DNA of 64,000 bases from Alphaproteobacteria bacterium (GTDB lineage: Bacteria > Pseudomonadota > Alphaproteobacteria > RF32 > CAG-239), in NCBI GenBank assembly GCA_017937705.1, contig JAGBDC010000024.1, positions 11,079-75,078 of the forward strand. Reading direction: 5' to 3'. Of the stretch, positions 46,497-46,917 are shown piece after piece; the first letter of the stretch is position 1; each line of letters starts with the position of its first letter. Both the position numbers and the translations under genes were made by a program. The notes under the pieces were generated by a model. The model saw nothing but the letters and a program-made list of their open reading frames with translations, searched no databases and had not been told where the DNA came from.

Positions 46497-46917
46497 TTAT
46501 TTAAAATAAAATGTTATATTATTTGTATCTCCGACACCTTTTCAGTTTGCTGCAGCCTGAGATAGGGATAATGCTTCTAGGTTCGCTCCCCTTGGTAATG
46601 AGCCTGAAATTTTGCTAAAGGTTCCTGTTGTAACCCAAGCACCAAGAAAACCGGAGCCGGATTCATAGCCCCAATCAGCTGTTGCCAGAGCAACACAAGC
46701 TTCTTTACCTAAACCGCCAAAACCTATGCCAAACATTCCCTCCGTTGCTCCGTCAATTCCTGTGCTGCCAACAAAATCTACATGCGCAGGTCCGTTATAT
46801 GCATTATATGCTTTTTTAGCTGTCGTTGTGCTTTCTCCGTTTAGCATTTCGGATTGCCAAAACACCAAGCATTTCAACCATTGAACGACCGGATTGCTCA
46901 CTTTTAATTTTATTCAT
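46497..46917 (-). pseudogene. decayed paralogue of the type IV pilin gene
   Basis: The ATG at 46917 gives MNKIKSEQSGRSMVEMLGVLAI, then the frame is lost. About 60 codons corresponding to IGVLSVGG...QMGAIGA of the intact pilin are missing. Homology resumes in another frame (track ORF 46542..46901: ...TTTAKKAYNAYNG...GLGKEACVALATADWG...). A TGA sits where the intact gene has its second Cys codon, and homology continues past it (GVGDTNNITFYFK against GEGDTNAVQWTYY). Confidence 0.75.

What the first reader, a model, noticed from the sequence alone, without database searches (positions are those of the whole stretch)
46497..46917. Decayed pilin gene copy directly after virB11; pilin sequences bracket the whole superlocus
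The copy keeps the RBS, start codon and first 22 codons (23 nt, ggtcgttcaatggttgaaatgct, are identical to the intact gene). It then has a ~60-codon deletion with a frameshift, a divergent variable region, and a TGA exactly where the intact pilin has its second Cys codon. Homology continues after that stop. It has the same orientation as the functional gene 36 kb away, so the two form diverged direct repeats at the two edges of the T4bP-T4SS block. There are three possibilities: a dead paralogue, a silent donor cassette for pilin variation (as with the Neisseria pilS principle), or a scar of the duplication or recombination that assembled the locus. It also occupies the place where rvh systems carry virD4.
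Basis: partly seen in the sequence, partly recalled or inferred. Interest (0 to 1): 0.6.

Follow-up and report, generated by a model that had tools for sequence, protein, structure and literature searches.

The report
Dead orphan pilin gene behind flip-switch
The sequence after virB11 is a real but broken copy of a pilus-subunit gene, one decayed member of a family of about 14 scattered pilin genes that sit behind flippable promoter switches. It is an ordinary pseudogene, not a structural edge of the secretion-system locus.

Summary
At 46497-46917 on the minus strand there is a PilS/bundlin-type type IVb pilin gene. It keeps its RBS, ATG and 22 codons. It then has a 182-nt out-of-frame deletion, and a TGA sits where Cys2 should be.

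Seven independent assemblies of this species share the same deletion junction, so it is not an assembly error. Three of them still have TGT (Cys), so the TGA arose later.

- The genome has about 14 PilS-like loci on 11 contigs, including a second, independently truncated copy.
- The T4bP-T4SS block has the same ~36 kb layout in at least five related species that lack this copy.
- The closest intact relative (75% identity) is not the operon pilS. It is a 205-aa pilin at the same position, convergent on virB11 and sharing its terminator, in a sister lineage.

So this is in-situ decay of an orphan pilin paralogue. It also keeps the family's ~73-bp invertible promoter switch. I saw that switch flipped, with unchanged flanks, at two sister loci. 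Here it is in the presumed OFF orientation in 7 of 7 assemblies, and one crossover core is mutated.

Patches of the copy have been exchanged with other paralogues. I found no sign that it donates sequence to an expressed pilin.

The scan had already noted similar pilin families and switches in other genomes.

The parts
46497..46917 (-). Pilin pseudogene, from its ATG (46917) to the original TAA (46497-46499)
   Evidence: It is homologous to PilS/bundlin-type pilins. The intact orthologue P0005 (205 aa) aligns along the whole length except for the deletion.
46853..46917 (-). Retained start codon plus 22 codons: the prepilin leader MNKIKSEQSG and mature residues 1-12, RSMVEMLGVLAI (Glu5 present)
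   Evidence: This stretch is 100% aa identical to paralogue C11a.
46852..46853 (-). Deletion junction (ggcaat|ccgaaatg). 182 nt are missing relative to the intact genes, which removes mature residues ~13-72 (most of helix alpha-1) and shifts the frame. The endpoints lie in two GC(A/G)ATT (Ala-Ile) direct repeats.
   Evidence: The junction is identical in 7 independent assemblies.
46545..46852 (-). Frame-shifted remnant of the globular domain (EMLNGES... to the Cys2 position), including Cys1 TGT at 46695-46697 and the hypervariable D-region 46545-46694
   Evidence: The D-region patch 46585-46668 is replaced in allele L044: 31 differences, including two 3-nt indels.
46542..46544 (-). TGA at the position of the Cys2 codon, a secondary lesion
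   Evidence: Alleles L044, L056 and L057 (proteins P0004, P0002) have TGT here, and their frames run on to the original stop.
46918..46931 (-). Shine-Dalgarno region (aaaaggataatatt) directly before the ATG
   Evidence: It is conserved across the paralogues.
46937..46966 (-). Right (gene-proximal) recombination site of the switch, with crossover core GTAC and the -10-like TACAAT at 46947-46952
46967..47009 (-). Interior of the invertible segment. It carries a -35-like TTGATT on the plus strand at 47001-47006, which here points away from the pilin gene (presumed OFF orientation).
   Evidence: The orientation is the same in 7 of 7 assemblies.
47010..47036 (-). Left recombination site. The core is mutated: TGTCC in place of CGTAC, so the crossover dinucleotide is TC against TA at the right site.
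   Evidence: L056 and L057 have CGTCC; L044 has CGTAC.
47036..47071 (-). Upstream conserved part of the family's 5' region (ttgaaaaattatcctgcaaaaacaatttattgcaac)
46455..46480 (.). Bidirectional intrinsic terminator shared by virB11 and the pilin copy
   Evidence: It is conserved in L055 next to the intact orthologue.
46476..46501 (-). Downstream copy of a ~20-nt A-rich direct repeat (AATAAACATAAAAAACACTAAAAAGG) at the cassette border
   Evidence: The sister-lineage 'empty' spacers hold a single copy.
47131..47154 (-). Upstream copy of the same direct repeat (AATAAAACAACACTATAAAAAATG)
9783..10394 (-). Intact 203-aa PilS-type pilin at the 3' end of the T4bP operon (the comparison gene). It has no switch upstream.
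45468..46436 (+). virB11 (T2SSE ATPase), last gene of the T4SS operon and convergent on the pseudogene

Best explanation
The element is a unitary pseudogene. An orphan type IVb major-pilin gene once sat, tail to tail, behind virB11 and has decayed where it stood.

It belongs to a family of about 14 PilS-like genes scattered through this 1.58-Mb gut alphaproteobacterial genome. Most family members are single-gene units made of three parts: a conserved 5' region, a ~73-bp invertible segment bounded by two GTAC-centred sites, and the pilin gene. Flipping the segment brings a -35 (TTGATT) inside it to 17 nt from a -10 (TACAAT) at the gene-proximal site, so the flipped state is presumably ON.

The likely order of events in this copy was:
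1. A 182-nt deletion between two short Ala-Ile codon repeats removed most of helix alpha-1 and shifted the frame. The start codon now yields only a 33-aa peptide.
2. Later the Cys2 codon became TGA, three further non-synonymous changes accumulated in the window's lineage, and the left switch site lost its GTAC core. That last change probably locks the switch in the presumed OFF orientation.

The remnant has no function of its own. It still undergoes ectopic recombination with other family members.

What is shown and what is inferred:
- Shown: the lesions, their order, that the copy is fixed in the sampled population, the intact orthologue, and switch inversion at sister loci.
- Inferred: the ON/OFF assignment, the locking of the switch, and the absence of expression.
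For: 1. The lesions and their homology to pilins are real.
2. The same junction occurs in seven independent assemblies whose flanks are 99.5-100% identical to the window: ERZ27256931, ERZ28018764, ERZ28654397, ERZ28654462, ERZ28653940, ERZ27256853 and GCA_054284945.1. This rules out an assembly artefact.
3. Three of these alleles have TGT where the window has TGA, so the nonsense codon came second.
4. An intact 205-aa orthologue, P0005 on L055, sits convergent on virB11 with the same terminator, in a lineage whose virB11 is 97% identical to the 'empty' sister-lineage contigs. It is the nearest intact relative in every segment.
5. This is a multigene family: tblastn finds 14 loci on 11 contigs.
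6. The pseudogene differs from its conspecific alleles at 1.1-1.6% of sites, against 0.2-0.4% in the flanks. Of 6 changes versus L056, 4 are non-synonymous, 1 is nonsense and 1 is synonymous.
7. The switch really flips in this species. At the C11a locus L142 is flipped relative to L140, L141 and L143. At the C29 locus L146 and L150 are flipped relative to L147-L149. Flanks are identical in each case.
8. The pseudogene's switch is in the forward orientation in 7 of 7 assemblies, and its left core is GTCC.
9. Two ~200-aa serine recombinases (Resolvase, one with HTH_7) are encoded in the genome.
Against: - 'Not expressed' is therefore an inference.
- The downstream frame is still open for 119-134 codons in an AT-rich genome. 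This fits a young pseudogene, but also some retained use.
- One conspecific allele (L044) carries a replaced 84-nt D-region patch with in-frame indels, and leader/N-terminal patches identical or near-identical to other family members (39 of 39 nt to the C23 copy; 95% over 40 nt to C29). The remnant therefore still takes part in recombination.
- The copy is fixed in all seven sampled genomes of the species.
- A second family member (C23) lost nearly the same segment independently. That recurrence is not explained.
Confidence: 0.8

Rival explanations
1. Silent donor cassette. The alpha-1-less copy, and its counterpart on contig C23, are kept as reservoirs of D-region sequence. RecA-dependent gene conversion would copy that sequence into expressed pilin paralogues, as Neisseria pilS copies feed pilE.
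For: - The family is visibly mosaic.
- Allele L044 of this very copy has a swapped D-region patch with in-frame indels, and leader/N-terminal patches identical over 39 nt to the C23 pseudogene. Ectopic exchange involving pseudogenes therefore happens within the species.
- Two independent copies lost the constant alpha-1 region but keep open variable domains.
- An earlier scan note (e1-4529446) describes a similar 5'-deleted pilin copy that keeps its leader, in another genome. That note is unchecked.
Against: - The copy keeps its promoter region, RBS and ATG, unlike pilS.
- There are only two such copies, and they are not in arrays.
- The longest exact match of its variable part anywhere else in the genome is 21 nt, and that lies in a conserved block.
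- The best intact pilin in 5.8 billion proteins is 75% identical overall, and 71% for the L044-type D-region.
- Every exchange seen is equally well explained with the pseudogene as recipient.
- About ten intact paralogues, several of them behind this same switch, already provide variation by phase switching.
Confidence: 0.1
2. Exapted promoter remnant. The cassette persists because its switch, in the forward orientation, or the promoter-like site on the opposite strand of its 5' region, reads towards tgt and adds to tgt transcription.
For: - In the forward orientation the TTGATT at 47001-47006 on the plus strand points towards tgt (47217).
- The consensus scan lists TTGCAA-16-GATAAT at 47037-47064 on the plus strand.
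- The cassette is fixed in 7 of 7 assemblies.
Against: - The promoter-like hits are no more frequent than in shuffled sequence: 4 found against 3.1 expected.
- tgt has its own conserved proximal promoter-like site, and in the sister lineage it does without the cassette.
- The -10 partner at the mutated left site is poor (GACATT).
Confidence: 0.04
3. Scar of the event that joined the T4bP and T4SS loci, or direct repeats that allow excision of the 36-kb block.
For: Both pilin sequences are on the same strand at the two ends of the block.
Against: - The block has the same layout in at least five other species without the copy.
- The copy is not derived from the operon pilS: 46-54% nt identity, against 75-90% to the orthologous orphan gene.
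- Shared identity with pilS is two ~70-nt blocks at 84-85%, with exact runs of 23 nt at most. That is too little for efficient homologous recombination.
- All assemblies that reach that far keep virB10/virB11 next to the copy.
Confidence: 0.02
4. Assembly or sequencing artefact of an intact second pilin gene.
For: The genome is a 34-contig MAG, and conserved pilin 5' ends do break assemblies in relatives.
Against: The identical junction is found in seven independent assemblies made by different pipelines, and no repeat long enough to mislead an assembler lies at the junction.
Confidence: 0.01

Closest known systems
Type IVb major pilins of the PilS/bundlin group (R64 and Salmonella Typhi PilS, EPEC BfpA; Pfam PF08805, PF05307)
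   Same: The operon pilS and the intact orthologue P0005 hit both Pfam families. They share the prepilin leader ending in Gly, Glu5, a hydrophobic alpha-1 helix and two Cys that bracket a variable D-region.
   Different: This copy lacks mature residues ~13-72, is frame-shifted, and in the window has TGA in place of Cys2. Its 119-aa ORF gives no Pfam hit. The family here is expanded to about 14 dispersed genes, whereas R64 has a single pilS.
Neisseria pilE/pilS pilin antigenic variation (silent cassettes; from general knowledge)
   Same: A truncated, non-expressible pilin copy that retains the variable C-terminal part, within a family that shows mosaic exchange.
   Different: pilS copies lack a promoter, RBS and the 5' constant region, and sit in arrays. 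This copy keeps all 5' signals and lacks an internal segment. No donated tract was found.
Bacteroides fragilis Mpi-type invertible promoters (Coyne et al. 2003, cited in PMC4747536). The site consensus ARACGTWCGT is recalled from memory and was not verified; the paper was not held.
   Same: - A short promoter-bearing segment flips between sites that contain ACGTACGT-like cores.
- Many dispersed surface-protein genes share one switch type.
- Small serine recombinases are encoded elsewhere in the genome.
   Different: - The phylum is different (Alphaproteobacteria).
- The targets are pilins and autotransporters.
- The promoter appears to be split across the crossover site.
- In this particular copy the switch was never seen flipped, and one core is mutated.
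Moraxella bovis / M. lacunata Q/I pilin inversion (Piv; from general knowledge)
   Same: Site-specific DNA inversion determines which pilin is made.
   Different: In Moraxella the inversion swaps pilin coding segments behind a fixed promoter. Here the promoter segment flips and the coding regions stay in place.

Membership tests
Type IVb pilin (PilS/bundlin) | Class III (prepilin) signal ending in Gly, with Glu at mature position 5 | tested here: met
   MNKIKSEQSG|RSMVEML at 46853-46917
Type IVb pilin (PilS/bundlin) | Continuous hydrophobic N-terminal alpha-1 helix joined in frame to the globular domain | tested here: not met
   The 182-nt deletion removes mature residues ~13-72 and shifts the frame.
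Type IVb pilin (PilS/bundlin) | Two Cys that bracket the C-terminal D-region | tested here: not met
   In the window Cys1 TGT is present (46695-46697), but the Cys2 codon is TGA (46542-46544). Alleles L044, L056 and L057 keep TGT.
Type IVb pilin (PilS/bundlin) | Match to Pfam PF08805 / PF05307 | tested here: not met
   The 119-aa ORF has no Pfam hit at E <= 0.01. The operon pilS hits both families, and the intact orthologue P0005 carries both.
Unitary pseudogene of an orphan pilin | The same disabling lesion in independent samples | tested here: met
   Identical junction in 7 assemblies
Unitary pseudogene of an orphan pilin | An intact orthologue at the same genomic position in a related lineage | tested here: met
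   P0005 on L055, convergent on virB11 and sharing its terminator
Unitary pseudogene of an orphan pilin | Relaxed constraint (faster change than the flanks, mostly non-synonymous) | tested here: inconclusive
   1.1-1.6% divergence against 0.2-0.4% in the flanks; 4 non-synonymous, 1 nonsense and 1 synonymous change. The numbers are small.
Unitary pseudogene of an orphan pilin | No transcript or protein product | not testable with these tools
Neisseria-type silent pilin cassette | Lacks promoter, RBS, start codon and the 5' constant coding region | tested here: not met
   All of these are retained at 46853-47071.
Neisseria-type silent pilin cassette | Variable tracts shared with an expression locus (evidence of donation) | tested here: not met
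   Longest exact match elsewhere in the genome is 21 nt. The best intact protein is 75% identical.
Neisseria-type silent pilin cassette | Several silent copies arranged in arrays | tested here: not met
   Single copy here. The only other truncated copy is on contig C23.
Invertible promoter switch (serine-invertase, Mpi-like) | A segment bounded by matching recombination sites | tested here: inconclusive
   The sites are at 46937-46966 and 47010-47036, but the cores differ (GTAC against GTCC) in the window allele.
Invertible promoter switch (serine-invertase, Mpi-like) | Both orientations observed with constant flanks | tested here: not met
   At this locus the orientation is forward in 7 of 7 assemblies. 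The feature is met at sister loci C11a and C29.
Invertible promoter switch (serine-invertase, Mpi-like) | A promoter whose direction depends on orientation | tested here: inconclusive
   The flipped state gives TTGATT-N17-TACAAT at C11a and C29. This is a consensus match only, with no transcript data.
Invertible promoter switch (serine-invertase, Mpi-like) | A cognate invertase | not tested
   There are two candidate ~200-aa serine recombinases, at C18:9367-9792 and C25:1413-1841. No link to the sites was shown.

The most novel reading that the evidence does not exclude
The two alpha-1-less pilin remnants (this one and C23:58456) are not mere wreckage. They would be promoter-silent stores of D-region sequence that exchange patches with the switch-controlled pilin paralogues. 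This gut commensal would then combine promoter inversion (which pilin is made) with segmental gene conversion (what that pilin looks like): a pilS-like principle in a type IVb family. Three observations leave this open. A D-region patch with in-frame indels was replaced in allele L044. A 39-nt tract is identical between the two pseudogene loci. The same constant segment was lost twice.
Probability: 0.1. Interest if true: 0.6.

Novelty: new member of a known kind. Interest (0 to 1): 0.3.

Why it matters
By itself the element is an ordinary pseudogene. Its main value is as a correction: it should not be read as an edge marker, an excision repeat or a virD4 substitute of the T4bP-T4SS locus.

Its context is more useful.
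- It shows that the pilin repertoire of these uncultured gut Alphaproteobacteria (records labelled CAG:495, 'uncultured Azospirillum', Ca. Scatocola) turns over by birth, decay and patchwise exchange of orphan genes.
- Each orphan gene sits behind a small DNA-inversion switch, and that switch demonstrably flips in natural populations of this species.
- The dead copy is a natural 'locked' control: a mutated crossover core, and never seen flipped. That could be used to test the site requirements of the unknown invertase.

Tried and rejected
- **Truncated copies in relatives.** N-terminal-only pilin matches in G011 and G015 looked like further truncated copies. All sit at contig ends, where assemblies break in the conserved 5' end, so they are not evidence.
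- **Presence/absence polymorphism.** I first read the contigs with an identical VirB11 protein but no cassette as a polymorphism within the species. Their flanks are only 87-88% identical at the nucleotide level, so they belong to a sister lineage. The copy is fixed in all seven conspecific assemblies.
- **Known RNA families.** Rfam gave only weak terminator-like hits in 46300-47300, all below their gathering scores.
- **Sigma-54 promoter.** This reading of the leader was dropped on inspection, because the GG/GC spacing is not conserved among paralogues.
- **Simple slippage.** Slippage between the two GAAATGCT repeats does not explain either deletion junction.
- **Donor of the L044 D-region patch.** None was found. 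The best match is 79% nt and 71% aa, to P0006.
- **Literature.** Searches found no paper on invertons before pilins in gut Alphaproteobacteria. The Mpi site consensus could not be verified.

Full report
**1. Observation**

Both pilin sequences lie on the minus strand. The operon pilin (9783-10394) encodes a 203-aa protein that hits Pfam PilS_N (E = 7.5e-16) and Bundlin. It ends a type IVb pilus operon with T2SSF, a T2SSE ATPase, PilO, a secretin and TcpQ/PilL homologues.

The copy runs from ATG 46917 to the original TAA at 46497-46499.
- A nucleotide alignment shows the RBS, the ATG and 22 codons retained. This includes the 23-nt identical run.
- A 182-nt gap follows, after which homology resumes in another frame.
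- TGA at 46542-46544 aligns exactly with the TGT of Cys2, and similarity continues to the stop.
- Translation from the ATG stops after 33 residues. The shifted frame is a 119-codon ORF.
- Similarity is far beyond chance: tblastn E = 5e-19, and blastn gives two blocks at about 1e-16.

The copy is convergent on virB11 (45468-46436, plus strand), and the two share a bidirectional terminator at 46455-46480. tgt starts at 47217.

**2. Not an artefact, and the order of the lesions**

Exact-protein look-ups returned the locus from seven independent assemblies whose flanks are 99.5-100% identical to the window. All have the identical junction ggcaat|ccgaaatg.

Three of them have TGT where the window has TGA: L056 and L057 (protein P0002) and L044 (protein P0004). 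Their shifted frames run on to the original stop, giving 134 and 132 aa. So the deletion came first and the nonsense codon later. The window's lineage has three further private non-synonymous changes, at 46736, 46784 and 46816.

Against L056 the pseudogene differs at 6 of 376 sites (1 synonymous, 4 non-synonymous, 1 nonsense), compared with 0.2-0.4% in the flanks. This is compatible with neutral drift, but the numbers are small.

**3. What it decayed from**

A search of 5.8 billion proteins with the 119-aa frame found intact 199-205-aa pilins. The best is P0005 (75% identity).
- Its contig, L055, shows the gene convergent on virB11, with the same terminator and 3' flank.
- The virB11 part of L055 is 97% identical to sister-lineage contigs that have no pilin at this site.
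- Segment by segment, P0005 is the nearest intact relative: 84% nt from the junction to Cys1, 75% in the D-region and 90% in the tail. The best paralogue in the same genome (C11a) scores 52-60%, and the operon pilS 46-54%.

The alignment with L055 places the deletion between two GC(A/G)ATT (Ala-Ile) repeats: LAI|IGVLS...RIGAI|PTEMLNG. The net loss is 60 codons plus 2 nt. By analogy with type IV pilin structures (general knowledge), this removes mature residues ~13-72, which is most of helix alpha-1.

**4. The 'bracketing' idea**

tblastn of pilS on the whole 1.58-Mb genome finds 14 loci on 11 contigs. One of them is a second truncated copy at C23:58456. It lost about 190 nt of nearly the same region, but with a different junction and a C-terminal domain from another subfamily.

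In G001, G003, G009, G010 and G014, pilS and virB11 lie 35-36.5 kb apart on one contig (coordinates), and none of these genomes has a pilin within 1.5 kb of virB11. Among 80 further species-level loci, only one (L097) has pilins after virB11, and there they are co-directional and 43% identical.

The superlocus therefore exists without the copy, and the copy is not derived from pilS. The longest exact runs shared with pilS are 23 and 21 nt, which is poor substrate for recombination. A VirD4/TraG-like gene exists on contig C6, so the 'virD4 slot' remark is only positional.

**5. Presence and absence**

Contigs with the identical VirB11 protein but no cassette have virB11-tgt spacers of 123 nt or 194-206 nt. 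They are only 87-88% identical at the nucleotide level, so they belong to a sister lineage that includes G006. The copy is therefore fixed in the sampled members of its own species.

An A-rich ~20-nt direct repeat flanks the cassette (46476-46501 and 47131-47154; the same arrangement is seen in L055). It is present once in the short empty spacer. This fits either insertion with duplication or loss by recombination between the repeats. I cannot tell which.

**6. The retained 5' region is a DNA-inversion switch**

About 150 nt upstream of the ATG is conserved among several orphan pilins, but is absent before the operon pilS.

At two sister loci the ~73-bp segment between two GTAC-centred sites is exactly reverse-complemented between samples, with identical flanks:
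- C11a locus: L142 is flipped relative to L140, L141 and L143.
- C29 locus: L146 and L150 are flipped relative to L147-L149.

In the flipped state TTGATT lies 17 nt from TACAAT at the gene-proximal site, so flipped is presumably ON. This rests on a consensus match only.

In this genome's consensus assembly only the C13 pilin is in that state. The same switch precedes about seven autotransporter genes, in both orientations. Two ~200-aa serine recombinases are candidate invertases.

Earlier notes of this scan describe such 'Mpi-type' switches before pilin-like genes in other genomes. I used them as leads and verified inversion here independently.

The pseudogene keeps the switch:
- right site 46937-46966;
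- interior 46967-47009;
- left site 47010-47036.

It is in the forward (presumed OFF) orientation in 7 of 7 assemblies. Its left core is TGTCC in the window and CGTCC in L056/L057, so the central dinucleotide no longer matches the right site. For serine invertases this should block exchange (general knowledge; an inference here).

**7. Does it act as a donor?**

Conspecific allele L044 differs from the window at 70 of 1980 positions. The differences fall in three clusters:
- D-region 46585-46668: 31 differences, including two 3-nt indels.
- 46897-46979: the N-terminal codons and the right site.
- 47010-43: the left site.

The 30-nt core between the second and third clusters, and the flanking genes, are almost identical.

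The right-hand patch is 39 of 39 nt identical to the C23 pseudogene's leader and N-terminus. The left patch is 95% identical to the C29 leader. Ectopic exchange among family members, pseudogenes included, is therefore recent and real.

Nothing, however, shows this copy acting as a donor:
- Its variable part has no exact match longer than 21 nt elsewhere in the genome.
- No intact pilin with a near-identical D-region exists in the protein collection.
- It keeps all 5' expression signals, unlike Neisseria pilS.

**8. Verdict**

This is a decayed orphan pilin paralogue behind a probably locked-OFF switch (confidence about 0.8). It is an ordinary kind of object in an interesting gene family. That family and its switches had already been noted by this scan on other DNA.

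Two things remain unexplained: why two copies independently lost nearly the same alpha-1 segment, and how orphan pilin cassettes arrive at or leave their sites.

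Noticed in passing
G000:C23:58330-58990 (outside the window): A second pilin pseudogene, directly after fabD-fabG. It has lost ~190 nt of nearly the same alpha-1 region, with a different junction (gatgt|taatgct) and a frameshift. Its switch interior has been excised, leaving the left and right sites fused (aaaaaacgtac|ctttaatcggaac).
   Followed up: partly
G000:C11:92380-92535 and C29:26911-27065; loci L140-L143 and L146-L150: Clean in-situ inversion of the ~73-bp switch segment between samples, with identical flanks, at two intact orphan pilin loci. 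The flipped state creates TTGATT-N17-TACAAT.
   Followed up: yes
G000:C13:24174-24310: The only orphan pilin whose switch is in the presumed ON orientation in this assembly (TTGATT-N17-TACGTT facing the gene).
   Followed up: partly
G000:C19:2911-3005, C4:8150-8247, C27:2739-2833, C28:38155-38248, C13:165-252, C3:2495-2586, C18:20714-20800: The same switch core precedes about seven 650-815-aa secreted proteins that start MKYN/MKFN (the one tested has an autotransporter beta-domain). Four are in one orientation and three in the other.
   Followed up: partly
L051/L053 versus L052 (metagenome contigs carrying the identical pilin P0006): The pilin gene and its downstream flank are 99.9% identical, but the switch segment is flipped and the upstream flank is completely different, starting exactly at the left site. 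This suggests larger rearrangements by recombination between switches at different loci. P0006 also occurs next to a Bax1-I gene on L050.
   Followed up: partly
G000:C11:92326-92410, upstream of C25:85906 and C13:24185; also L009 (G031) just after virB11: A repeated ~90-nt palindromic element (…agcgacgtggcaatccat…ctggattgcttcgcaagga…cgtccgctcgcaatgac…), REP/MITE-like, lies next to several pilin cassettes.
   Followed up: no
window 10496-11050 (-): A second, 184-aa bundlin-like pilin gene lies between the T2SSF gene and pilS in the T4bP operon. It has no paralogues elsewhere in the genome.
   Followed up: no
G000:C6:35815-37440: A VirD4/TraG-type coupling protein gene (729-aa open frame) lies far from the T4SS operon of the window.
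   Followed up: no
L097 2690-3675 (CALXTG010000213.1): In one other species two pilin genes follow virB11 on the same strand, so the virB11 3' flank has received pilin genes more than once.
   Followed up: no
L036 1-545 (G006:C4) and many G000 contig ends (C3, C7, C8, C20, C22, C26, C31): A ~550-nt multicopy repeat sits at many contig ends, probably an IS element or another assembly-breaking repeat.
   Followed up: no
G000:C11:93249-93773 (-): A 306-aa tyrosine recombinase gene (Phage_integrase, XerC/D-like) lies convergent to, and directly after, orphan pilin C11a. The arrangement is conserved in L140-L142.
   Followed up: no
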